DNA from: Candidatus Omnitrophota bacterium
GTDB lineage: Bacteria; Omnitrophota; Gorgyraeia; Tantalellales; Tantalellaceae
NCBI GenBank assembly: GCA_043812935.1
Contig: JBDRLO010000040.1
Coordinates: forward strand, 7,779 to 71,778
DNA: 64,000 bases
Direction of reading: 5' to 3'
Shown: positions 1,807 through 62,900 of the stretch, piece by piece
Layout: every line of letters starts with the position of its first letter
Position numbering within the stretch: position 1 is the first letter of the stretch
Notes under the pieces: model-generated
Seen by the model: the letters and a program-made list of their open reading frames with translations, nothing else
The model's database searches: none
What the model was told of the DNA's origin: nothing
Position numbers and translations under genes: made by a program

Positions 1807-1867
1807 CGTGAAACATGCGGCATGTTTCGTGTAACACATCCTTAGAGCTAACTAACATCCTAACCAC
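1807..1867 (-). repeat. post-stop composite element: GTTAG-rich short array plus palindrome
   Basis: Directly after the gpmI stop, the minus strand reads GTGGTTAGGATGTTAGTTAGCT, then GTGTTACACG, then the palindrome GAAACATGC-C-GCATGTTTC (1810-1828). Confidence 0.5.
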
Positions 1868-11700: not shown

Positions 11701-11756
11701 TTTCGCCTCCATAATAAATTGTGTCATTTGCTAGTTCCTTCATTAAACATAGAATA

Positions 11757-11786
11757 AACCAGCTAACCGGCCAACTGGCTAACCAA
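11757..11786 (-). repeat. 8-nt-periodic GGTTAGCC-type array directly after the mnmE stop
   Basis: Minus strand TTGGTTAG CCAGTTGG CCGGTTAG CTGGTT. Confidence 0.6.
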
Positions 11787-14495: not shown

Positions 14496-14724
14496 GTAAC
14501 TACTTTTCTCCATTGAATTCTTGCTGAGCCATTTTAGCAATTATTTTTTCATATTTACTCATAATGTATCCACATCCTGATGATTTTTATAGTTTTACAT
14601 CTCTTCATTATTTGATAACACTTTAAAGATATTGTTGGTTTTTATTTCAAAGGCAAGAAAACCGGTCGTCGCTAAACTATCTTAATAGAGTAATGCATTT
14701 TGTCCGGCTCATGTAGAATACTGA

Positions 14725-14766
14725 AAACAGGCATACCTGCTTCCTATAAATCAAACGGCTAACCGG
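14725..14766 (-). repeat. weak copy of the post-stop composite (one GGTTAGCC unit plus imperfect palindrome with U-tract)
   Basis: Minus strand CCGGTTAGCCG ... AAGCAGGTATGCCTGTTTTCAG, downstream of purH. Confidence 0.4.
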
Positions 14767-24576: not shown

Positions 24577-24615
24577 AACTCCCTCCATTTAATGGTTAAT
24601 GGGGACTGGTTAATG

Positions 24616-24690
24616 GGGACAGCTACCATTTATTAAACAACAAAAAGCGGGAAACTAAGTTTTCTATTTTTAATAAATGGTAGCTGTCCC
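24616..24690 (-). repeat. 19-bp perfect-stem hairpin downstream of helicase copy A
   Basis: GGGACAGCTACCATTTATT (24616-24634) pairs with AATAAATGGTAGCTGTCCC (24672-24690); 37-nt loop. The minus-strand head reads TAGGGACAG, like the REP heads. Confidence 0.8.
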
Positions 24691-24693
24691 TAT

Positions 24694-26151
24694 TTATAAT
24701 TCTATAACCGGTTCATTTTCTGAATCGAATTCAGAATCAAGCATGCGGGAACTTGCCTGCCAGACTTCATAATCTTCGTCGGCAAGTTCTTCTAAAAACC
24801 GGCTTCGCGGCGCGCTTACAGCGCCTAACTGATAATCATAACGCATAGCGGGATGCACCATATATAAATATTTTCTAGCCCGTGTAACAGCAACATAAAA
24901 AAGACGTCTTTCTTCTTCCATTTCAGCTTCGCTATTCGATGATTTTGAATGAGGAAACTGCCCGTCACAAAGCCCTATAAGAAATACTGCATCCCACTCC
25001 AACCCTTTTGCCTGGTGAATAGTTGAAAGCACAAGTTGTCCGGTCTCTTCAGAAAATGAAAAAGCGTTTGTCTCCCCGCGGAAACCTTCCTGAAGAGACG
25101 TATCGTTAACAAAATCCTTAACTGTTTCATAATCATGTGAAAAATTCACAAGTTCGCGAATATCTTCAATTCGTTCTTTAGCATTTTCATACGCCGCTAA
25201 AACATGCATTTCATATCCTGAATCCAATATTCGTTCCACAATATCAGCAATGTTTGTTTCACCGCGAATATCCGAAGTTATTGCCCGCATTATTTTCTGA
25301 AAAACCGAATATCCTGCCTGCACTTTTGAGGGGAACACTCCAGACACATCATCAGAAACAAACTGGTTTATACTTTTACCTTCCTTTTTAAAACGTTCAT
25401 AAATCTTTGCGGCATATCCCGGACCGATACCAGGCCAAAGCGTCAAGGCCCTGATCCAGGAAGTTTCATCCAAAGGATTAGCCAGAATTTTCATGTATGC
25501 TAATACGTCTTTTATATGCGCTTGTTCAAAAAAACGAAGCCCCCCGCGAACAACATAAAAAATCCCTCGTTTAACCAGTTCCATTTCAAGTTCCGCAGAT
25601 TGATAATGCGCTCGAAAAAGAACAGCAATATTTTTTATATCAACACCTTCGTCCAAAAGCTCTTTTATCCTTTGGACGACAAAAGATGCCTGGGAATACA
25701 AATCTCTAACTTCAACAAGAGCGGGCATTGAAAGAGATTCATTCACGGTTTTCAGTTCTTTTTGAAACTGGTTATCATTATTTAAAAGTGAATCATTTGC
25801 AAGAGCAACAATTTCAGGAGTAGAACGGTAATTTGTTTCCAGTTTAAATACTTTTACATTATCAAACTTTTCAGGAAATTTAAGTATATTTTCGACTCGC
25901 GCGCCCCGGAAGGAATAAATAGACTGCGCGTCATCGCCCACTGCCAGAATATTTTTGTGTTTTTCGCCGAGAATATCAATTATTTCCGCCTGCAGATAAT
26001 TCGTATCCTGATATTCGTCAACCATTATATATTTAAACTTGTCACTAAACTTCTCTCTTACTTCTTTTACATTTTCCAGCAAATATTTCCAGTTAATCAA
26101 AAGATCGTCATAATCCATATTTTCTGTTTCGCGTTTTTTCTTTTCATACAT
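24694..26151 (-). CDS. UvrD/PcrA-family helicase, N-terminally truncated paralogous copy (lacks the Walker A domain)
   Basis: 485-aa intact ORF starting at MYEKKKRETENMDYDDLL, which aligns to about residue 195 of the upstream copy. Contains VDEYQDTN, TNYRST, TIHQAKGLEW and VAVTRA motifs. Confidence 0.75.
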   Translation of the reverse strand: MYEKKKRETENMDYDDLLINWKYLLENVKEVREKFSDKFKYIMVDEYQDTNYLQAEIIDILGEKHKNILAVGDDAQSIYSFRGARVENILKFPEKFDNVKVFKLETNYRSTPEIVALANDSLLNNDNQFQKELKTVNESLSMPALVEVRDLYSQASFVVQRIKELLDEGVDIKNIAVLFRAHYQSAELEMELVKRGIFYVVRGGLRFFEQAHIKDVLAYMKILANPLDETSWIRALTLWPGIGPGYAAKIYERFKKEGKSINQFVSDDVSGVFPSKVQAGYSVFQKIMRAITSDIRGETNIADIVERILDSGYEMHVLAAYENAKERIEDIRELVNFSHDYETVKDFVNDTSLQEGFRGETNAFSFSEETGQLVLSTIHQAKGLEWDAVFLIGLCDGQFPHSKSSNSEAEMEEERRLFYVAVTRARKYLYMVHPAMRYDYQLGAVSAPRSRFLEELADEDYEVWQASSRMLDSEFDSENEPVIEL

Positions 26152-26224
26152 ATCTTTAATTGTTTTAATTTCATTGAAAAATTTAAAAAAATAAGGAAAT
26201 CGTTCATCTAATACTTTTTAATGG

Positions 26225-26299
26225 GGGACAGCTACCATTTATTAAACAACAAAAAGCGGGAAACTAAGTTTTCTATTTTCAATAAATGGTAGCTGTCCC
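26225..26299 (-). repeat. second copy of the 19-bp-stem hairpin (downstream of helicase copy B)
   Basis: Same arms as 24616-24690 and the same 37-nt loop with one difference. Confidence 0.8.
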
Positions 26300-26321
26300 T
26301 ATTTATATACGTGGAACGCAT

Positions 26322-28365
26322 TCACAACTCTATTATGGGTTCTCTTTCTGAATCAAATTCTGGATTCAACATCTGGGAACTTGCCCGCCAGACTTCATAA
26401 TCTTCACCTGAAAGTTCTTCTAAAAACCGGCTTCGAGGCGCGCTTACGGTTCCCAACTGGTAATCATACCGAGTACACGGATGCATCATATATAGGTGTT
26501 TTTTTGCTCTTGTCACGGCAACATAAAAAAGACGTCTTTCTTCTTCCATTTCAGCGTCACTATTCGCTGACTTTGAATGCGGAAACTGTCCATCGCAAAG
26601 ACCGATGAGAAATACCGCATCCCATTCCAATCCTTTTGCCTGGTGTATGGTTGAAAGTACTAGCTGACTGGACTCTTCTGAAAACGAAAAAGCGTTTGTT
26701 TCGCCACGAAACCCCTTCCTGGAGAGAAGTATCACTCACAAAATCTTTAATCGTTTCATAATCGTGCGAAAAATTTACAAGTTCCCGAATGTCATCAATT
26801 CGTTCTTTCGCGTTTTCATACGTTGCTAAAACATGTGTTTCATACCCTAAATCTAATATGCGTTCCACTATGTCCGCTATATTTGTTTCGCCGCTTATGT
26901 CCGAAGTTATTGCTCTCATTATTTTTTGAAAGATTGAATACCCCGCGCGAACTCTTGCAGGAAACGCGATAGACACATCGTCCGAAACAAACCGGTTTAT
27001 ACTTATGTCTTGTTTTTTAAAAAATTCATAAATTTTCGAGGCATATCCCGGGCCGATCCCCGGCCAAAGGGTTAATGCCCTTATCCATGAAGTTTCATCC
27101 AGCGGATTAGCCAGAATCTTCATGTACGCTAACACGTCTTTTATGTGCGCTTGCTCAAAAAAACGCAGTCCCCCGCGAACAACGTAAGAAATCCCGCGTT
27201 TAACCAATCCCATTTCCAATTCCGCAGATTGATAATGTGCCCTAAAAAGAACGGCAATGTTTTTTATATCAACTCCCTCGTCCAAAAGTTCTTTTATTCT
27301 TTGGACAACAAAAGACGCCTGAGAATATAGATCTCTAACTTCAACAAGAGCAGGCATTGAAAGAGATTCATTCACTGTTTTTAATTCTTTTTGGAACTGG
27401 TTATCATTATTTAAAAGCGAATCATTAGCAAGCGCTACAATTTCAGGGGTAGACCTATAATTAGTTTCTAATTTAAATATTTTTACGTTATCGAATTTTT
27501 CGGGAAACTGTAATATGTTTTCGACCCGTGCCCCTCGAAAAGAATAAATAGATTGCGCATCGTCACCTACGGCCAAAATATTTCGATGTTTTCCGCCAAG
27601 AATATCAACTATCTCAGCCTGCATATAATTTGTGTCCTGGTACTCATCAACCATTATATACCTAAATTTGTTACTGAATTTTTCTCTTACTTCTTCTACG
27701 TTCTCAAGTAAATACTTCCATCTAAACAAAAGATCGTCATAATCCATGTTTTCTGTTTCGCGTTTTTTCTTTTCATACATATCTTTTATTTTGTTTATTT
27801 CGTCCTTGAATTTAAAAAAATAAGGATATCGCGCATCTAATACTTTTTCCAAAGTTCTTTTTGTGTTTACCGAAAGGCTTATTATCGCTTGCATCACAGA
27901 CGCCTTCGGAAACTTTTCGCCTTTAGGCAAGGCTTTAACAACTGTCTTCGTACAACTTTTTATCAAGTCACGTGAATCCTGCTGGTCTAAAATACCAAAA
28001 TCTCTTGTAAACCCTATCTTTTCAGCGTACATTCTGAGGGTTCTATTACCTACATGATGAAACGTTCCGCTCCACAACCCTTTCGGGCTATACCTTAAGA
28101 GTCTCTCCGTCCGTTCCCGCATTTCCCGAGCGGCTTTATTCGTAAAAGTCATAAGAAGTATATTTTGAGGAGGGACTCCCCGTTCTAAAAGATAGGCCAA
28201 CCTGTAAATCAAGGTTCTAGTTTTACCGCTTCCGGCACCCGCAAGGACAAGACAAGGCCCTTCCGCCTGCGTAACAACTTCATACTGTTGTTCGTTAAGG
28301 CTCTCCGCAAAATTTATGTGCGTTTCTATGGTTTCTGAACTTTCGTTTAGGATATATCTCTTCAT
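26322..28365 (-). pseudogene. UvrD/PcrA-family ATP-dependent DNA helicase, full length but interrupted by a 1-nt frameshift
   Basis: Walker A AGAGSGKT, VDEYQDTN, and so on. ORFs 26560-28365 and 26322-26735 overlap. Relative to copy A there is one extra C in the run at 26712-26715 (minus strand CAGGAAGGGGTTT versus CAGGAAGGTTTC). Confidence 0.8.
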
Positions 28366-38360: not shown

Positions 38361-38603
38361 TTATTTGTTTTTTGGTTTAGCCGTTTTTTTAATTTTTGCG
38401 CTTGTTGTTTTTTTTACCGGCTTTACAGTTTTTTTCTTTGCCGTTTTCTTTAAAAGTTCTCTGATTTCAACGGTATTCATTTTATCCAGCTTTTCTTTAG
38501 CACAGCCTGCAACTACAAGTCTTCTCTTCTGTGAGGCCACCTTCTGTTTCTTTTTAGCTCCGCTTTTTTTTGGACGAGAACGGTAATTTTTGCGCGGTTT
38601 CAT
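38361..38603 (-). CDS. small lysine-rich basic protein with a central HeH/SAP-like motif (nucleoid-associated candidate)
   Basis: 80 aa from the ATG with AAGGAGA. Central LDKMNTVEIRELLKK is flanked by K-rich tails (KKTAKKKTVKPVKKTTSAKIKK). Confidence 0.6.
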   Translation of the reverse strand: MKPRKNYRSRPKKSGAKKKQKVASQKRRLVVAGCAKEKLDKMNTVEIRELLKKTAKKKTVKPVKKTTSAKIKKTAKPKNK

Positions 38604-38667
38604 ATCTATCTCCTTATTACTCTTAAAGTTAAGCCATTTACACAAAGAACCGGCTTTTAATCTCATT

Positions 38668-38682
38668 ATCACAAATTGTGAT
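38668..38682. promoter_or_regulatory. 7-1-7 perfect palindrome abutting the -10 of the basic-protein promoter
   Basis: ATCACAA-A-TTGTGAT. Confidence 0.5.
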
Positions 38683-38733: not shown

Positions 38734-38782
38734 CGTACAACGTGTTCCGTGTTGCGTGTAGCGTGTTTCGTGTGACGTGTAA
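38734..38782. repeat. heptanucleotide tandem array (CGTGTNN) x7
   Basis: CGTACAA CGTGTTC CGTGTTG CGTGTAG CGTGTTT CGTGTGA CGTGTAA. Confidence 0.85.
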
Positions 38783-38824: not shown

Positions 38825-39661
38825 TTGAGCATGATTAAAAGACTTAAAAATGATATAGATACTGAACTTAAAGCTTTTTTAAAAGAAACCGAAGCTGATT
38901 TTGCGCTTAAATCTTCTTCTCGTCTTCTTTACTCCGCAATTACAAATTTCCTTGTCCGTGACGGCAAAAGAATACGTCCTATCTTATTTATTTTAAGTTA
39001 TTTAGGGTACACAAAAAAGCGTACAATACTGCATAAAAACCTGCTTCGCGCTTCCCTTTCATTTGAACTTTTACATGATTTTTTACTTATACACGATGAC
39101 ATCATAGATGAATCTGATTTAAGACGAGGCAAACCCTCCATGCATAACCTTCTTAACCGTAGTTTAAACATCTCCCCTAAACATAAATTGGGCGCTAATT
39201 TAGGCATTGTAACCGGAGACATTTTATTTGCCTTAGCTACAAAAGCGCTGCTGTCGTTTAACGAAAAACCTCTGCGGAAAGAAAATGCCCTTAAAATGTT
39301 TACAGACATAACAACATATACCGGAATAGGAGAATTCATTGATGTCCTAAACAATATATCCAACATTGATAAAATTTCTAAAAAAGATATTAACCTTACA
39401 TACTCTCTTAAAACATCAAAATATACCTTTGAAGGCCCCCTGGTAATTGGAGGAATATTATCCGGCGCTCAAAAAAAAGAAATCAATAACCTTTCAAAAC
39501 TGGGATGCATTCTAGGACAGGCTTTTCAGATACAAGATGATCTTCTTGATATATTCGGCGCAGTTAAAAAAACCGGTAAACCTGTTTTTTCGGATATTGC
39601 CGAATCAAAAAAAACTCTTTTAATTTGGCAGACATATAAAAGAGCCCTGAAAAAAGGATAA
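38825..39661 (+). CDS. polyprenyl diphosphate synthase (short-chain trans-IDS, GGPP/FPP synthase-like), truncated by a frameshift
   Basis: FARM LIHDDIIDESDLRRGKPS and SARM FQIQDDLLD. The stop follows an A6 run (39650-39655). Confidence 0.85.
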   Translation: MSMIKRLKNDIDTELKAFLKETEADFALKSSSRLLYSAITNFLVRDGKRIRPILFILSYLGYTKKRTILHKNLLRASLSFELLHDFLLIHDDIIDESDLRRGKPSMHNLLNRSLNISPKHKLGANLGIVTGDILFALATKALLSFNEKPLRKENALKMFTDITTYTGIGEFIDVLNNISNIDKISKKDINLTYSLKTSKYTFEGPLVIGGILSGAQKKEINNLSKLGCILGQAFQIQDDLLDIFGAVKKTGKPVFSDIAESKKTLLIWQTYKRALKKG

Positions 39662-42768: not shown

Positions 42769-42812
42769 ATAACCATTTCTGCGCTTGCTAGATATTCACG
42801 TCTATTTGTAAC

Positions 42813-42882
42813 GGACAGGCACAAGGACCTGTTCCTACATATTTATTTTTAGGTCCCGGACAGGGACAAGCCCTGTCCCTAC
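42813..42882 (-). repeat. two adjacent REP-like palindromes
   Basis: GGACAGGcacaaggaCCTGTTCCTAC (42813-42838) and GGACAGGGacaaGCCCTGTCCCTAC (42858-42882). The GTAGGG head is on the minus strand. Confidence 0.8.
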
Positions 42883-42929
42883 GTTATTTTCATCAATTTT
42901 TAAAAATATATTCTCTCGATCTTTGAAAG

Positions 42930-43547: not shown

Positions 43548-43571
43548 GTAGGGGCAAGGCATGCCTTGCCC
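43548..43571 (+). repeat. REP-like palindrome
   Basis: GTAGGGGCAAGGCATGCCTTGCCC. Confidence 0.8.
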
Positions 43572-43588
43572 TTCTAAATACGTCATAG

Positions 43589-47523: not shown

Positions 47524-47589
47524 AGCGGGACAGGCATGCCTGTCCCCTACATCAATTAACCGACTAACCGGCTAACTGGCTAACCAAAA
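47524..47589 (-). repeat. composite post-stop element: 8-nt array plus REP palindrome acting as the fba terminator
   Basis: Minus strand after the stop: TTTTGGTTAG CCAGTTAG CCGGTTAG TCGGTTAA TTGATGTAGGGGACAGGCATGCCTGTCCCGCTTTTGTG. Confidence 0.8.
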
Positions 47590-48561
47590 CTACGCTTTCC
47601 CTGCGCTGCCAAGCACGTTTTCATTCTTATGCTTATACATTTTGATAAGTTCGTCCCGCGCAGGGCCAAGATATTTTCTCGGATCGAATTCTTTTGGACT
47701 AGTCGCAAAAACTTCTCTTATCTTCGCGGTCATGGCAAGCCGGCCGTCACTATCAATATTGATTTTACATACTGCAGATTCCGCGGCTTTGCGAAGCTGA
47801 TTTTCCGGAACACCTACGGCATTTTCCAAATTTCCGCCGTATTTATTTATCATTTCTACATATTCCGGCATAACAGAACTCGCGCCATGCAAAACTATCG
47901 AAAACCCCGGAAGCCTTTTTTCAACTTCGTACAAAATATCAAATTTTAACGGCGGAACTTCTTCACCTGGAGCAACTTTGAACTTATAAGCGCCATGCGA
48001 TGTTCCAATAGATATGGCTAAACTATCTACCCCGGTTTTTCCGACAAATTCTTCGACTTCTTCGGGTTTAGTATAATGTGTTTCTTCATGGCTAACCTCA
48101 TCTTCTATCCCTGCTAAAACACCAAGTTCACCTTCAACCGTAACATCATGCTGATGCGCATACTCAACAACTTTTTTAGTAAGCGCAATATTATCTTCAA
48201 AAGAAAGGCCTGATCCGTCTATCATAACCGAAGAAAATCCGGATTCTATACAAGAAACGCAAAGTTCATAAGAATTGCCATGATCAAGATGTAAAGCAAC
48301 CGGAATATTAGAACCAGCATCTTTAATTATATCAATTGCGCCGTGAGCCATATGCCGCAACAAAATCTGATTCGCGTACTTCCGTGCGCCTGAAGAAACC
48401 TGCAAAACAACAGGAGAATTTGTTTCTATACAAGCAGTGATAATAGCCTGCAGCTGTTCCATATTATTAAAATTATATCCGGGAATTCCATATTTCCCTC
48501 CAATAGCTTTTGAATACATATCCCTAGTATTAACTAATCCTAAATCTTTGTAACTATGCAT
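47590..48561 (-). CDS. fba: class II fructose-1,6-bisphosphate aldolase
   Basis: LHLDHG, GELG and IGTSHGAYKF motifs. Confidence 0.93.
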   Translation of the reverse strand: MHSYKDLGLVNTRDMYSKAIGGKYGIPGYNFNNMEQLQAIITACIETNSPVVLQVSSGARKYANQILLRHMAHGAIDIIKDAGSNIPVALHLDHGNSYELCVSCIESGFSSVMIDGSGLSFEDNIALTKKVVEYAHQHDVTVEGELGVLAGIEDEVSHEETHYTKPEEVEEFVGKTGVDSLAISIGTSHGAYKFKVAPGEEVPPLKFDILYEVEKRLPGFSIVLHGASSVMPEYVEMINKYGGNLENAVGVPENQLRKAAESAVCKINIDSDGRLAMTAKIREVFATSPKEFDPRKYLGPARDELIKMYKHKNENVLGSAGKA

Positions 48562-53344: not shown

Positions 53345-53427
53345 ATTTATCTACATTTCAGGTTCCACGCCACACACTACACGTTTTGCATCCAGTACAA
53401 CCCCGGGGATTGTCTTACAAATTGTCC

Positions 53428-53493
53428 GGGCGGGGAAACCCCGCCCCTACACTACAAAAACGGCTAACCGGCGAACCAATCAACCAGCCAGCC
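53428..53493 (-). repeat. composite post-stop element (8-nt array overlapping the grx 3-prime end plus REP palindrome)
   Basis: Minus strand GGCTGGCT GGTTGATT GGTTCGCC GGTTAGCC G TTTTTGTAGTGTAGGGGCGGGGTTTCCCCGCCC. Confidence 0.75.
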
Positions 53494-54845: not shown

Positions 54846-54993
54846 GGACAGGCTCGGGGGCCTGTCCCTACACTAACTAACTGGATCGGCGTCGAAGGAC
54901 AGGCTCGGGGGCCTGTCCCTACACTAACTAACTGGATCGGCATCGAAGGACAGGCTCGGGGGCCTGTCCCTACATCAATTAACTAGCTAACTG
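54846..54993 (-). repeat. three tandem REP units (51-bp period) plus GTTAG-type tail, between dfx and rbr
   Basis: GGACAGGCTCGGGGGCCTGTCCCTAC at 54846, 54897 and 54948. The 25-nt linker ACTAACTAACTGGATCGGC(G/A)TCGAA is repeated. The tail reads ATCAATTAACTAGCTAACTG. Confidence 0.9.
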
Positions 54994-54997
54994 TTTT

Positions 54998-55375
54998 TTA
55001 TACTTTCCAGAGGCCATGCACTGTACAGAATTCTCTGACTTCCTGTATTTCTGATTTCAAAAGGCAAACTTCGGCTTCCGGAGCCTGCCCGGGTTTTAAC
55101 TCTACACGTATAACTCTATCGTCACTTAAAACCTCTATGAACTTTATATAATGTTTTTCTTCCATCGGATGCGGCACACTCCCGATTTTTACCTTTGTTC
55201 CGGCATCTGTTTCTTCCATCACGGGAACGTGTTTTTCTTTTCCTTCGTCTTCTGTTTTTGCTTCTAACTTTTTCATTGGCTCATCACAACACACCAAGGA
55301 AGGCGCACCTTCATGAGTTATTTCAACCACATTTCCGCAAATTTCACATCGATACAATTCTCTAAGCCGGGTCAT
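54998..55375 (-). CDS. dfx: desulfoferrodoxin (2Fe superoxide reductase)
   Basis: N-terminal desulforedoxin YRCEICGNVVEI...VCCDEPM. Centre II ligands KHVPV, HPMEEKHYI and CTVHGLW. Confidence 0.92.
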   Translation of the reverse strand: MTRLRELYRCEICGNVVEITHEGAPSLVCCDEPMKKLEAKTEDEGKEKHVPVMEETDAGTKVKIGSVPHPMEEKHYIKFIEVLSDDRVIRVELKPGQAPEAEVCLLKSEIQEVREFCTVHGLWKV

Positions 55376-56304: not shown

Positions 56305-56329
56305 GTAGGGGCGAGGCATGCCTCGCCCC
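56305..56329 (+). repeat. REP-like palindrome
   Basis: GTAGGGGCGAGGCATGCCTCGCCCC. Confidence 0.8.
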
Positions 56330-56479
56330 TATATGGTCGAATTAACCTCAACCCCCTTTTATGGGATGAGAGGTTATATGCTTTTTTTATAGCTTCCCTT
56401 TCTTAAGAGATACTGATTTAAAAAGCTTTGTCAAGTCTAGCGGTAATATTAATAATAAAAAAAGAGGGTGGGGACAGCT

Positions 56480-59792: not shown

Positions 59793-59902
59793 GGACAGGC
59801 ACAGGAGCCCTATACCACGCAGGGTATAGGGCAAGACCTGTCCCTACCGGCAAACCAACCAGCAAAACAGCAAACCGGCTAACTGGCCAACCGGCTAACC
59901 AA
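59793..59902 (-). repeat. composite post-stop element: seven 8-nt units plus nested-hairpin REP
   Basis: Minus strand after the stop: TTGGTTAG CCGGTTGG CCAGTTAG CCGGTTTG CTGTTTTG CTGGTTGG TTTGCCGG TAGGGACAGGtcttgCCCTATACCctgcgtGGTATAGGGctcctgtgCCTGTCC. Confidence 0.85.
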
Positions 59903-62900
59903 TCACCCCGCCACCTTCACTCCGTTACGGCCGCTTTCTTTAACGTCATATAACGCTTTATCCGCTTCTTCCAAAAGTTTTATCCGGTCTGTGCCGTCTT
60001 CCAGTTCTGAAATGCCTATACTTACCGTCACTTTTAATTCTTCTTCTCCGCTCCGGCCCGCGTATTTCACCTTATGTATTTCAACTGCCCGTCTTATACG
60101 GTCAGCAATCCTTCGGCTGGCCTCTTTTCCGGTTTCCGGCATTACTGCCACAAATTCATCTCCACCGTATCTCGCGGACAAATCGCTTTTTCTCAAGTTG
60201 TTCATAATCAAATCAGATACGCTTCTTATAACCAAATCTCCCACTTGATGCCCATACCGGTCATTAAAATCTTTAAAATGATCTATATCTATCATCATTA
60301 CACTTAATCGTTTTCCATATCTTTTTGCCTGTTCAACGCTTTTCATTAAATAGTTTTCAAAAAATACGTGGTTATATAATCCCGTCAATCCGTCCGTAAC
60401 GGCTCTCTTATATAATCTCGCGTTTTCGATTGATACTCCTGCCTGGCTTGCAATTAAATGCAGCACCCATAAATCTTCCCGGGTAAATAGCCCCTTAACT
60501 AAATGGTTATCAAGATATATTACTCCTATCATTTCTCTTCTGGCTTTTATGGGCACGCATAATACCGACCTCAATCCTGACCTGACTACACTTACTTTAT
60601 TCTTCAGCTCTTCATCTGCTGACGCGTCTTCTATTATCACAGCTTCTTTTTGCCTCTCCACGCGTTCTATAACACTTCGGCTCACCTCAAAAGAGTCAGC
60701 ATTATGCCTTTCTGATTCTATATTTTTTACTACTTTTATATCTAATTCCCGTTTCGCTGTTTTTTCTTCGGGATACATTAAAAGTATCCCCCGTTCCGCG
60801 CCCACCAACTCAATTGTCTTCTCCATTATCTTCTCTAAAAGCTCATCCATATCCAACACAGAACTGATATACCTGCTTGTATCCAATACGGCTATCATTT
60901 TTCGTTCAGTTTCCAACTTCTCCTGCTGTGTTAACGCTTTCTGTTCTTCTATTATTACTTCTTCTTTTGTGCCTAAAAACACCTGTGTTTTATCTTCATA
61001 AAGTTTCGCTCCGATTTCTTTGAATATATCGTAAGCTTCCCTAACTCGGGTTCTTGACTCGTCTTCCCTCCCAACCTTTTTCAAAAACCTGCCGTACTCA
61101 TACATGGTTCTTGCTTCTTCAAATCTACGTCCAATACGACTCGTATGCGCGATACTTTTTAGAAAATAGTTTTCTGCCGTCCGGTTTTTTTCGAGTAACG
61201 AATAATACTCTCCTGCGGCTCTTAACGCGCCGCCATAATGGTTTATCCATTTACTGGTTTTCCGTAACGCAGCTTCAACTGCTTTTTTAATTTTTCTTAA
61301 TTGTTCTTTCGGATCTTGTCCGGTGCTATTTTTATACTGTTCTATATATGCTTCCGCTAAATAAACATAAAGATACGTTGTATAATTTTTAAGAAAATTA
61401 TTTTCCTCCCTTAATTTTCTGCCTTTTTCCAATAATTCTATTGCTTTTTCCCAATTACCTGCCATGTATTCCGCGTATCCCAAATTAATGGCAGTGAAAC
61501 AAAATATAAACCAGATTTTTTCCGTACGGCTCAATTCAAGAGCTTTTTCACCATATTCCCGAGATTTTTGGATATCCCCTTTCTCCGCGTAAATAAGGCA
61601 TAACCAGCCTTGAGCATCGCTAATACCATAATTATCGTTTGTTTTATAGACTTCTCTGAAAAATTCCAGAAAAACAAGCAATGCCTTATCATGCAAACCG
61701 TTAAAAAAATAACTATGCCCCAGGCCCTGAACTGCTAAACTCAATTCCCACATATCTCCGATCTTTTTAAAAATATCCCTGCTTTCCTGAAAATACCTGC
61801 AGCTTTTCCGGTATTCCCCTGTCCATTGAAACAAATAACCCATAAACCTTAACGACTGTCCCAGACCTCTTTCATCTCTCATTTCTTTGGCAATAGCTAA
61901 AGCTTTTTTCTGATAACGCATAGCACGTTTAAAAAACGGAATCGTTGAGCAAGCCGCGGAATAGAAACTGATACTTGTCTGCAAGAGTGATGATTTAAAA
62001 AGTTTTGCTTCACTCAGGTTAAGAACTCTTAAAACCACCCATAAAAGACGCGTTATATCGCTGAAAACATATGTCCAGCCCAAAGCTATGTATCCTTTAA
62101 GTGTTTCTATATATTTTTCCTGAACAATTTTGTCTTTTTTCGAAACAAAAACTATGGGGAAAACACAATGAAGAATATGAACAAACAATTCTTTCGCCAA
62201 AAAACCCATCAACATAGATTCAGTAACGGGAAGTTTTTCGCCTAAATAAGAAAACCCTGCCGCAATATTTTTCTCGCAATTCTCCCAATCACCTTTTTTC
62301 CAATAAGCTTCACCGATTCTTCGATAAATAGTATTCTTTTCCAAAGGGTTTGTTTTAAGAGGCAATATCTGTTTAGAAATATTAATAGCTTCATCATTTT
62401 TTCCGATAATTAAATAAACTTCAGTTAGGCCCTCTTTCGCTTTTATCCATTTAGCCTGGCCCTCTAATTTTTTTTCTTCTAAAATTTTTAATACGATTTG
62501 ATAATATTTTATCGCCTCTTCATTTGCATAATCTTCTTTAGCTTTTTCGGCTGCCGGCAAACAATACTCCAGCATTTTTTCATTATCGCCGCCTTCAACA
62601 TAATGATGCGTCAAATCAAACAAAATCTCTTCTTTGTCTCCTCTGTGTAATTTTTCCAGAACTTTTGCCACTTTTAAATGCAATTCTCTTTTTTTTCTGT
62701 CGCCTATTTCTTTATAAAAAGCGTCTTTTATCCTGTCATGCACAAAAAGTATCTCGCCGCGCCATGTACTTTTCTCCAAAAGCTGCAATTCTACTGCTTT
62801 ATCCACCAATGTTATTATTTCTTCCATGGGTTTCCCTATCAGCGCATACAAAAGTTCCATCTTAAATTTTCTACCGATTACCGCGGCCGCTGACAATAAC

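What the first reader, a model, noticed from the sequence alone, without database searches (positions are those of the whole stretch)
59793..59902. 8-nt-periodic GGTTAGCC arrays begin at stop codons and lead into the REP hairpins (a BIME-like composite element)
Immediately after the stop codons of seven minus-strand genes, the coding strand carries 1 to 7 tandem octamers of consensus (C/G)CGGTTAG. The sites are gpmI (1843-1867), mnmE (11757-11786), purH (14756-14766), fba (47550-47589), grx (53461-53493), dfx (54974-54993) and the GGDEF protein (59848-59902). These are usually followed by TTGATGTAGGG... and the palindrome. At grx the array overlaps the last codons (GGG CTG GCT GGT TGA, encoding GLAG). 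The strict placement, orientation and 8-nt phase are not explained by termination alone. They could be the transposition-target or end sequence of the REP unit, a 3-prime-UTR protein or sRNA binding platform, or a recoding/ribosome-rescue related signal. I know of no described element with this architecture.
Basis: seen in the sequence. Interest (0 to 1): 0.6.

Follow-up and report, generated by a model that had tools for sequence, protein, structure and literature searches.

The report
Octamer repeat arrays after stop codons
Several genes in this uncultured Omnitrophota genome are followed, 2-5 bases after the stop codon, by a few tandem copies of the 8-base unit GGTTAGCC; this short dispersed repeat sits next to ordinary REP hairpins, also occurs in many other bacterial phyla, and I found no description of it.

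Summary
Four sites (mnmE, fba, grx, GGDEF) carry clear 8-nt-periodic arrays of RGTT(A/G)GCC. Two more (dfx, gpmI) carry degenerate two-unit arrays. The purH site has one unit, 91 nt from the stop. All lie on the coding strand. Six begin 2-5 nt after a stop codon (p about 0.024 per array for random intergenic placement).

The downstream palindromes are ordinary GTAG-tagged REP hairpins, a known family that typically lies under 20 bp from upstream ORF ends. The arrays are a separate repeat family:
- REPs in relatives lack them.
- One array here has no REP.
- The same octamer forms standalone or inverted-arm arrays in metagenomes of many phyla. There it is also biased to co-oriented stop codons (14 versus 2) and varies in unit number between near-identical contigs.

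Only the sense RNA folds on itself, through G-U pairs.

Best reading: a microsatellite-like, REP/MITE-class intergenic repeat transcribed as a stop-proximal 3'-UTR hairpin. Mobility and RNA function are inferred, not shown. It is not a BIME. No published description or Rfam family was found. I rate it a new variant of a known kind, of moderate interest.

The parts
59869..59900 (-). GGDEF array: GGTTAGCC GGTTGGCC AGTTAGCC GGTTTGCT. It starts 2 nt (TT) after stop TGA 59903-59905.
   Evidence: the terminator-like scan flags 59896-59873 as a 10-pair G-T-tolerant stem with a T-rich tail
59848..59868 (-). Decayed array units GTTTTGCT GGTTGGTT TGCCG that lead into the REP head.
59793..59847 (-). GTAG-tagged REP: GTAG plus a nested long hairpin, GGACAGG...GCCCTATACC/GGTATAGGGC...CCTGTCC.
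47554..47585 (-). fba array: GGTTAGCC AGTTAGCC GGTTAGTC plus terminal unit GGTTAATT. It starts 4 nt (TTTT) after stop TAG 47590-47592.
   Evidence: the fba C-terminus is identical in relatives
47527..47553 (-). GAT + GTAG + REP hairpin GGGACAGGCATGCCTGTCCC, followed by GCTTTTG.
53462..53493 (-). grx array: degenerate GGCTGGCT GGTTGATT (encodes the last codons and the TGA stop at 53480-53482), then GGTTCGCC GGTTAGCC.
   Evidence: grx ends ALGLAG* here and ALGLAD* in L117, but ALEL*/ALGL* in L120/L125; terminator-like stem 53486-53461 followed by TTTTT
53424..53450 (-). GTAG-tagged REP hairpin GGGGCGGGG TTT CCCCGCCC.
11753..11784 (-). mnmE array: GGTTAGCC AGTTGGCC GGTTAGCT plus GGTTTATT. It starts 4 nt (ATTT) after stop TAA 11789-11791. 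There is no REP. A one-unit complementary stretch, AACTAGC, lies just before the folE ATG.
   Evidence: the MnmE C-terminus is unchanged versus L215
54977..54992 (-). dfx degenerate two-unit array AGTTAGCT AGTTAATT, 5 nt after stop TAA 54998-55000.
54846..54976 (-). Three head-to-tail 51-nt units. Each is a GTAG REP (GGACAGGC CCCCGA GCCTGTCC) plus a linker ending in AGTTAGTTAGT.
   Evidence: the sister species has about 1.5 units
1850..1865 (-). gpmI degenerate units GGTTAGGA TGTTAGTT, 2 nt after stop TAG 1868-1870. The stop TAG is in 8-nt phase with the units' TAGs.
14715..14766 (-). Single unit CCGGTTAGCCG plus decayed TTGAT-REP (TTTGATTTATAGGAAGCAGGTATGCCTGTTTTC), 91 nt downstream of the purH stop. 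It is not stop-adjacent.

Best explanation
The arrays are copies of a dispersed, microsatellite-like non-coding repeat. Each is a run of tandem RGTT(A/G)GCC units that usually ends in an AT-rich unit (GGTTAAnn).

The same unit builds the two inverted arms of 70-160-nt hairpin (MITE-like) elements in other Omnitrophota and in other phyla. In this genome mostly the stop-proximal arm is present. It lies beside a second, independent and already known repeat family, the GTAG-tagged REP hairpins.

The arrays are gained, lost, expanded and decayed on a genus time scale. They change unit number by slippage.

Because they start 2-5 nt after the stop codon and read GGTTAGCC on the coding strand, they are transcribed as the first bases of the 3' UTR or intercistronic spacer. 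There the sense RNA, and only the sense RNA, pairs with itself through G-U wobble. This gives a hairpin that can form in any register and that begins inside the footprint of the terminating ribosome.

By analogy with stop-proximal REPs, the likely effect is to protect the upstream cistron from 3' exonucleases and/or to damp termination and translation of that cistron.

Shown: sequence, periodicity, placement, orientation, lineage specificity, unit-number polymorphism, and strand-asymmetric folding in silico.
Inferred: how copies spread, that they are transcribed, and any RNA-level effect.
For: - Placement and orientation in the window: 4 of 4 clear arrays lie 2-4 nt after co-oriented stops, p about 3e-7.
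- Native C-termini are retained for fba, mnmE and dfx, so these are not ORFs running into arrays.
- Same bias elsewhere: of 37 metagenomic arrays (GC at most 0.56, flanks of at least 400 nt), 14 have a co-oriented ORF of at least 120 aa ending within -30..+15 nt. Only 2 do so in antisense. An array not selected by the search pattern, in L157, lies 2 nt after a 631-aa ORF.
- Dispersed-repeat behaviour: five or six sites in 64 kb behind unrelated genes. Sister species L117/L215 have none or only two decayed units at orthologous sites. L120 has an array behind a different gene.
- Slippage: 3 of 10 pairs of loci from different metagenome contigs whose 60-nt flanks are at least 97% identical differ in their array units (5 vs 6 and 6 vs 7 units in two pairs; unit number and sequence in the third).
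- Strand-specific fold: (GGUUAGCC)4 gives -19.3 kcal/mol, z -4.96. Its complement gives -8.4, z -0.63. The window regions have z about -3 to -3.6. Two arrays are picked up as G-T-tolerant stems with T-rich tails.
- Hairpin and MITE-like relatives: L157 has two elements with octamer-array arms and similar loops, filling the spacers before and after rpsL. Twelve loci show the pattern stop within 12 nt, array hairpin, start within 25 nt.
- Known precedent: uni-directional REPs lie under 20 bp from upstream ORF ends and often supply the TAG stop (PMC3733652). REPs under 16 nt from a stop down-regulate translation (PMC12306157).
Against: - No expression, 3'-end or protein data exist for this organism.
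- The G-U asymmetry follows automatically from the unit sequence, so it does not prove selection on RNA.
- In inverted-arm elements the variable position 5 does not covary between arms.
- There is no general T-tract after arrays: T fraction 0.30 versus 0.27 background.
- Sense is more stable than antisense in only 11 of 15 stop-adjacent hairpins.
- No transposase or target duplication was identified. Only 10 ORFs were tested.
- Only 64 kb of the source genome could be read, with nearly all genes on one strand.
- Whether GGTTAGCC is more common than other octamer microsatellites could not be tested.
Confidence: 0.45

Rival explanations
1. Purely selfish or neutral DNA. A slippage-prone mobile repeat survives only where it does no harm. 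The first bases after a stop codon are the safest place in a compact genome. Both strands of the unit carry stop triplets in all three frames after three units, so insertion at an ORF end costs at most a few residues. There is no RNA function.
For: - Not conserved at orthologous sites.
- Unit-number polymorphism.
- The arrays sit behind unrelated genes.
- Some ORFs end inside arrays, with the stop supplied by a unit. Examples are the L120 sucrose-synthase-like gene, L141, and 8 of 37 metagenomic cases.
- grx carries two extra array-like codons.
- Some arrays sit in ORF-free higher-order repeats, for example L172.
Against: - Tolerance alone does not give a 2-4 nt placement in spacers of 61-150 nt.
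- It also does not explain a one-sided orientation, because the antisense unit (GGCTAACC) carries TAA and would be tolerated equally.
Confidence: 0.3
2. A dedicated cis-regulator of translation termination. The register-independent hairpin abuts the terminating ribosome. It causes stalling, tmRNA tagging and mRNA cleavage, as shown for E. coli REPs under 16 nt from stops. In the inverted-arm form it brings the stop and the next start codon together for coupling.
For: - The hairpin starts 2-4 nt after the stop, inside the under-16-nt window defined experimentally for REPs (PMC12306157 citing Liang 2015).
- In the stop-to-start bracketing architecture, the hairpin ends 5-25 nt before the next ORF start in 12 loci. 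These include the rpsL-rpsG spacer.
- In GGDEF, grx and gpmI the stop codon is in 8-nt phase with the unit TAGs.
Against: - This rests on positional analogy only.
- Stop-to-array offsets vary from -6 to +13 and are only weakly phased.
- Arrays also occur far from any ORF.
- Bracketing can be a trivial result of insertion into very short spacers.
Confidence: 0.12
3. The array is part of the REP mobile unit. It is either its 5' end or the preferred target (for example TTGAT or GTTAR) of a REP-associated tyrosine transposase.
For: - The junction GTTAATTGAT|GTAGGG(G)ACAGGC is nearly identical at fba and dfx. It is retained as GGTTAGTTGAT|GTAGGGACAGG in sister species L117.
- 6 of 9 window REPs have GTTAR within 32 nt upstream.
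- The 51-nt dfx unit carries AGTTAGTTAGT before each GTAG.
Against: - The mnmE and gpmI arrays have no GTAG REP.
- Three window REPs and 16 of 16 REPs in L120 have no GTTAR upstream.
- L157 has both families, but apart.
- Arrays in other phyla occur without REPs.
- No RAYT was found among the tested ORFs.
Confidence: 0.1
4. A binding platform, on RNA or DNA, for a protein that reads one octamer per subunit. Alternatively, a polar DNA motif such as KOPS, Chi or an uptake sequence.
For: - Strict 8-nt register with a near-invariant GTT..GCC core and one variable position.
- The same unit occurs in many phyla.
- All window copies lie on the G-rich, probably leading, strand.
Against: - No candidate protein is known.
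- No known factor has this site.
- The arrays are rare overall: 86 loci with three near-perfect units in the whole metagenome collection.
- Arrays on both strands of one contig follow local genes or face each other.
- Stop adjacency is not expected for a replication-polar DNA motif.
Confidence: 0.05

Closest known systems
GTAG-tagged REP elements (Di Nocera, De Gregorio & Rocco 2013, PMC3733652; includes E. coli and Pseudomonas REPs and S. maltophilia SMAGs)
   Same: - The palindromes after the arrays have the unpaired GTAG tag and a 7-10 bp GC-rich stem with a 3-6 nt loop.
- They are dispersed, lie mostly downstream of co-directional genes close to the stop, and are sometimes reiterated in tandem with flanking DNA.
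- The family is already reported in the PVC superphylum.
   Different: - The octamer arrays themselves are not stem-loops with a GTAG tag.
- That paper states most REPs are not associated with other repeats, and it describes no 8-nt tandem array.
- Arrays occur without REPs and REPs without arrays.
BIMEs (bacterial interspersed mosaic elements) of enterobacteria
   Same: A composite of short repeats in extragenic, transcribed positions.
   Different: - BIMEs are defined by REPs in alternating orientation separated by a small set of conserved linker motifs.
- Here REP clusters are head-to-tail, and the extra component is a microsatellite. (BIME definition from my own knowledge; orientation tested.)
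MITEs and other hairpin-forming intergenic repeats (Correia, ERIC, RUP, BOX; reviewed in PMC3184786)
   Same: - In L157, L159, L189, L212 and the Desulfobacterales loci, the octamer arrays form inverted arms around a loop.
- They are dispersed, and copies within a genome share loop sequence.
   Different: - The arms are built of a tandem 8-nt unit, with a mismatch every 8 bp.
- No target-site duplication or cognate transposase was identified.
- In the window the second arm is absent, or reduced to one unit at mnmE.
Short tandemly repeated repetitive (STRR) heptamers of heterocystous cyanobacteria
   Same: Dispersed intergenic arrays of a 7-8 nt unit, usually downstream of ORFs, function unknown (from my own knowledge).
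   Different: Different unit, period and phyla. I know of no reported stop-codon register or G-U self-complementarity for STRRs.
Stop-proximal REP translational control (Liang, Rudd & Deutscher 2015, as cited in PMC12306157)
   Same: A stable hairpin beginning fewer than 16 nt after the stop codon.
   Different: That effect was shown experimentally for E. coli REPs only. Here it is an analogy.

Membership tests
GTAG-tagged REP (applies to the palindromes, not the arrays) | Unpaired GTAG (or close variant) at one end of the stem-loop. | tested here: met
   GTAG immediately 5' of the stem at 47547-47550, 53447-53450, 54970-54973 (three copies in that cluster), 59844-59847, 42882, 43548(+) and 56305(+).
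GTAG-tagged REP (applies to the palindromes, not the arrays) | Short GC-rich stem (about 6-13 bp) with a small loop, in many dispersed extragenic copies. | tested here: met
   Stems of 7-10 bp and loops of 3-6 nt (one nested long form). There are 9 units in the 64-kb window and 16 in 21 kb of relative L120.
GTAG-tagged REP (applies to the palindromes, not the arrays) | Associated REP-associated tyrosine transposase (RAYT) in the genome. | tested here: inconclusive
   No Y1 transposase among 10 unannotated window ORFs. The rest of the genome is not available.
GTAG-tagged REP (would the octamer array itself qualify?) | The unit is a stem-loop carrying a GTAG tag. | tested here: not met
   The unit is 8 nt with no internal loop. 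It contains GTTAG, not GTAG. A hairpin forms only between units and needs G-U pairs.
BIME | REPs in alternating (inverted) orientation separated by conserved linker motifs. | tested here: not met
   The dfx cluster is three direct head-to-tail 51-nt units. All other array-associated REPs are singletons.
MITE | Terminal inverted repeats flanking a short non-coding core. | tested here: not met
   Window arrays have no inverted partner, apart from one 7-nt stretch at mnmE. The feature is met in other lineages: L157, L159, L189 and L212.
MITE | Target-site duplication and a cognate transposase. | tested here: inconclusive
   The L157 flanks (TAAAT|...|AAAAAAAATG and TAAGT|...|AAAAAGATG) show no clear duplication. 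No transposase was identified.
Microsatellite / simple sequence repeat | Head-to-tail units whose number varies between close relatives while the flanks stay the same. | tested here: met
   L169/L180 have 5 vs 6 units, L192/L207 have 6 vs 7, and L152/L184 differ, all with 60-nt flanks at least 97% identical. The window has 4 fba units where sister species L117 has 2 decayed ones in the same phase.
Intrinsic (Rho-independent) terminator | GC-rich hairpin directly followed by a U-tract. | tested here: inconclusive
   The grx and GGDEF arrays and the fba REP are flagged by the simple scan. Across 83 arrays, however, T is not enriched downstream: 0.30 vs 0.27. The genome has canonical terminators elsewhere.
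Any Rfam RNA family | Match at the gathering score. | tested here: not met
   Only tRNAs were found in the window and in 10 array-bearing loci. Nothing lies at the arrays even at E up to 1.

The most novel reading that the evidence does not exclude
RGTT(A/G)GCC octamer arrays are a widespread, undescribed class of post-stop-codon RNA element. They form a self-propagating, register-independent G-U hairpin that is selected to abut the terminating ribosome. In its two-armed form it bridges a stop codon to the next start codon. Through this it controls termination, ribosome rescue or translational coupling in several bacterial phyla.
Probability: 0.12. Interest if true: 0.75.

Novelty: new variant of a known kind. 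Interest (0 to 1): 0.5.

Why it matters
Small intergenic repeats (REPs, BIMEs, MITEs) shape mRNA stability, operon polarity and genome plasticity. They have been charted almost only in cultured Proteobacteria.

This case shows three things. An uncultured PVC-related phylum carries classical GTAG REPs. A second repeat type, a tandem octamer that is self-complementary only as sense RNA, occupies the first bases after stop codons. The same unit recurs across phyla, both as single arrays and as arms of hairpin elements that fill whole intercistronic spacers, including those of the rpsL-rpsG operon.

If the placement is functional, it offers a simple sequence-defined handle on how 3'-proximal structure talks to the terminating ribosome. 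If it is merely tolerated selfish DNA, it is still a useful annotation class. It would also warn gene callers, because units supply stop codons and short C-terminal extensions.

Tried and rejected
1. Genome-contig scan with the 16-nt pattern GGTTAGCCRGTTRGCC. The pattern was too short for 596 Gb. It did reveal multi-unit arrays in many phyla.
2. The look-up of encoding contigs for the window's own fba and for P0001. Neither is on record, so no more of the source genome could be read.
3. Viral-contig scans for the real 24-nt pattern, its reversed unit and a permuted unit. All gave 0 hits, so there was no power for a control on whether this octamer is special.
4. Literature searches for the sequence and for octamer or octanucleotide repeats. 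Nothing relevant was found.
5. Rfam searches at gathering and E-value thresholds. No family matched.
6. RAYT search among 10 unannotated ORFs. None was found; the ORFs were CHASE2, MlaD, DUF212, HAD, NUDIX, UvrD, SLOG and GNAT proteins.
7. The idea that ORFs simply run into arrays. Rejected for fba, mnmE and dfx, whose C-termini match relatives. Retained for grx and for several metagenomic cases.
8. The idea that arrays are canonical terminators. There is no T-tract enrichment.
9. The idea that the Desulfobacterales array hairpin marks the 3' end of a conserved convergent gene such as a transposase. No consistent ORF was found. It is instead the core of a conserved non-coding element of about 250-300 nt.
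10. Covariation between inverted arms as proof of structure. The variable position 5 does not covary.
11. Sense versus antisense stability of two-armed hairpins. The bias is modest, 11 versus 4, and is confounded by how the sense arm was chosen.

Full report
**Source and gene context.** The window has 37% G+C. Its fba and mnmE products are 100% identical to proteins of a Candidatus Omnitrophota MAG on an 80.6-kb NCBI contig. That contig could not be retrieved. FolE, MscS, a TrxB-like reductase and NupC lie downstream of them. In my greedy ORF map (ORFs of at least 50 aa), 53 of 65 ORFs are on the minus strand. The plus-strand GC skew is -0.20.

**The observation.** I read every site on the coding (minus) strand.

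- Four sites carry unmistakable 8-nt-periodic arrays of consensus GGTTAGCC.
  - mnmE: three units plus GGTTTATT.
  - fba: three units plus GGTTAATT.
  - grx: two good units, preceded by two degenerate ones that encode the last codons and the TGA.
  - GGDEF: four good units plus about 2.5 decayed ones.
- dfx (AGTTAGCT AGTTAATT) and gpmI (GGTTAGGA TGTTAGTT) are degenerate two-unit arrays.
- purH has a single unit 91 nt beyond the stop, so it does not fit the description.

A scan for at least two consecutive units with at most two mismatches, on both strands, returns exactly the four clear arrays. All are on the minus strand. Shuffles give 0.64 on average. The arrays start 2, 2, 4 and 4 nt after the stop. 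The chance that a random intergenic position and orientation falls 0-5 nt after a co-oriented stop is 0.024, which gives about 3e-7 for four of four. No other recurrent GC-rich short-period tandem repeat exists in the window or in 104 kb of relatives chosen by protein rather than by repeat.

**The palindromes are ordinary REPs.** Each has an unpaired GTAG followed by a 7-10-bp GC-rich stem and a 3-6-nt loop. One is a nested long form. There are nine in the window and sixteen in 21 kb of relative L120. They occur in both orientations and have many different stem sequences. This matches the GTAG super-family of Di Nocera et al. (PMC3733652). That family is already reported in the PVC superphylum. 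Its members between co-directional genes lie under 20 bp from the upstream ORF end, and its termini often supply the TAG stop. The BIME label does not fit. The only cluster, at dfx, is three head-to-tail 51-nt units rather than alternating REPs with linkers.

**Arrays and REPs are separable.**

- The mnmE array has no REP, and gpmI has no GTAG REP.
- Three window REPs and 16 of 16 L120 REPs have no GTTAR motif upstream.
- In L157 both families occur, but apart.
- The junction GTTAATTGAT|GTAGGG(G)ACAGGC is shared by fba and dfx. It survives as GGTTAGTTGAT|GTAGGGACAGG after dfx in the sister species. At least that composite is therefore old or was copied as a unit.

**Evolution at orthologous sites.** The nearest relatives are the GCA_043811395.1 and GCA_018814505.1 lineage, with fba 97% and MnmE 81% identical at the amino-acid level.

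- They have no array after mnmE or purH.
- After fba they have only TAGTTTT GGGTAATT GGTTGATT, two decayed units in the same phase.
- They have an array-like grx tail.
- The 93% lineage (L120) has a REP 2 nt after the fba stop and no array there. It does have an array behind a different gene, whose TAG stop is the TAG of the first unit.
- The C-termini of Fba, MnmE and Dfx are unchanged, so in those cases the array begins after the native stop. Grx has two extra residues, shared by the window and L117.

The arrays are therefore dynamic and lineage-specific. They expand or decay in place.

**Beyond this genome.** A 24-nt three-unit pattern has about 0.2 matches expected by chance (my estimate). 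It found 86 metagenomic loci with G+C from 0.32 to 0.77. The truncated genome scan showed multi-unit arrays in genomes whose record titles name at least ten different major lineages. These include Omnitrophota, Desulfobacterales, Planctomycetia, KSB1, Acidobacteriota, Nitrospirota and actinomycetes.

- Unit logo outside the searched core: R-G-T-T-(A>G>T)-G-C-C.
- Arrays usually end in an AT-rich unit, GGTTAAnn, as in the window.
- Among 67 arrays of at least 3 units in loci with G+C up to 0.56, 44 pair with a downstream inverted array and 23 stand alone. The inverted arrays give long hairpins with one mismatch per 8 bp.
- Among 37 arrays in contigs of at most 56% G+C with adequate flanks, 14 have a co-oriented ORF of at least 120 aa ending between -30 and +15 nt of the array start. 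Only 2 do so in the antisense sense.
- Three of ten pairs of loci from different metagenome contigs with matching flanks differ in their array units, two of them by exactly one unit.
- In L157, a Hainich groundwater contig, two elements of about 140-160 nt with octamer-array arms and similar AT-rich loops fill the spacers before and after rpsL. Each runs from the stop codon to 6-7 nt before the next ATG. Twelve loci show this stop-hairpin-start bracketing.
- In Desulfobacterales MAGs an octamer-array hairpin is the core of a conserved, dispersed non-coding element of about 250-300 nt.
- None of these matches Rfam.

**Structure.** GGUUAGCC and GGUUGGCC are self-complementary as RNA through G-U pairs. 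Their complements are not. Four units fold to -19.3 kcal/mol (z -4.96), against -8.4 (z -0.63) for the antisense. The window's array-plus-REP regions give z of about -3 to -3.6 in sense. The simple terminator scan, which tolerates G-T pairs, flags the grx and GGDEF arrays and the fba REP. There is, however, no general T-tract after arrays, and the genome uses canonical terminators elsewhere. Sense folding is stronger than antisense in 11 of 15 stop-adjacent two-armed hairpins, which is weak evidence.

**Interpretation.** The best-supported reading has four parts.

- The arrays are a dispersed, slippage-prone, REP/MITE-class intergenic repeat.
- Its unit is the building block of hairpin elements in several phyla.
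- In this genome it sits as a single stop-proximal arm next to independent GTAG REPs.
- It is transcribed as a sense-specific hairpin that starts inside the footprint of the terminating ribosome.

By analogy with REPs, it would protect the upstream cistron from 3' decay. Because it lies under 16 nt from the stop, it could also damp termination or translation (PMC12306157 citing Liang et al. 2015). These functional steps are inferred.

A purely selfish, merely tolerated element remains a strong rival. However, tolerance alone does not explain the 2-4-nt precision in 61-150-nt spacers, or the one-sided orientation. Being the REP's own end or target, a protein platform, or a polar DNA motif are less likely, for the reasons given under rivals.

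**Limits.**

- Only 64 kb of the source genome could be read, with nearly all genes on one strand.
- No control for other octamers was possible.
- No expression data exist.

**Verdict.** This is a real and only partly ordinary feature. The REPs and their stop-proximal placement are known. The tandem-octamer component, its strand-specific self-complementarity and its cross-phylum recurrence are, as far as I could find, undescribed. I rate it a new variant of a known kind, with interest of about 0.5.

Noticed in passing
window 24615-24698 and 26224-26307 (with ORFs 24694-26151 and 26322-28365): Two 99%-identical 84-nt palindromic elements (GGGGACAGCTACCATTTATT...AATAAATGGTAGCTGTCCC). Each lies just downstream of one of two paralogous UvrD-like helicase genes (about 81% nt identity). 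The second gene appears frameshifted.
   Followed up: partly
window 54846-54998: A 51-nt unit (GTAG REP plus a linker ending in AGTTAGTTAGT) is repeated three times head-to-tail after dfx. The sister species (L117 2950-3080) has about 1.5 units. The stem is conserved and the loop differs.
   Followed up: yes
L004 (two copies), L008, L054, L096, L109, L134, L174 (Desulfobacterales / 'delta proteobacterium' MAGs): A conserved, dispersed non-coding element of about 250-300 nt. Its core is an octamer-array hairpin followed by TTTTT. It is flanked by conserved GGACCAGGCTTTGG...CCCCTGAAAGGGG and TTAGTTCACTTCAAACTCTTGCAG...GGTCCAGAGGACCAGG sequences. There is no consistent ORF and no Rfam match.
   Followed up: partly
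L157 10480-11260 (minus strand): MITE-like elements of about 140-160 nt, with octamer-array inverted arms and similar AT-rich loops. They occupy the whole spacers upstream of rpsL and between rpsL and rpsG. The rpsL stop TAG is formed with the first two bases of the element.
   Followed up: partly
L172 1080-3370; also L147 and L110 (G+C 0.36-0.39): Octamer arrays nested in higher-order tandem repeats of about 62 nt, in ORF-free DNA (five arrays in 6.6 kb).
   Followed up: no
window 38741-38781: Tandem heptamer CGTGTTG, about 5.9 copies, in the divergent intergenic region between ORFs 38361-38672(-) and 38825-39661(+).
   Followed up: no
window 42810-42885, 43548-43575(+), 56305-56330(+): GTAG REPs without arrays. 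Two lie between convergent genes. Two are in antisense orientation relative to the upstream minus-strand gene. REP orientation is therefore not fixed in this genome.
   Followed up: yes
L120 400-960: The 540-nt spacer after the GGDEF ortholog in the 93% lineage is packed with at least five GTAG REPs that have different stems. This shows how REP-rich some Omnitrophota intergenic regions are.
   Followed up: partly
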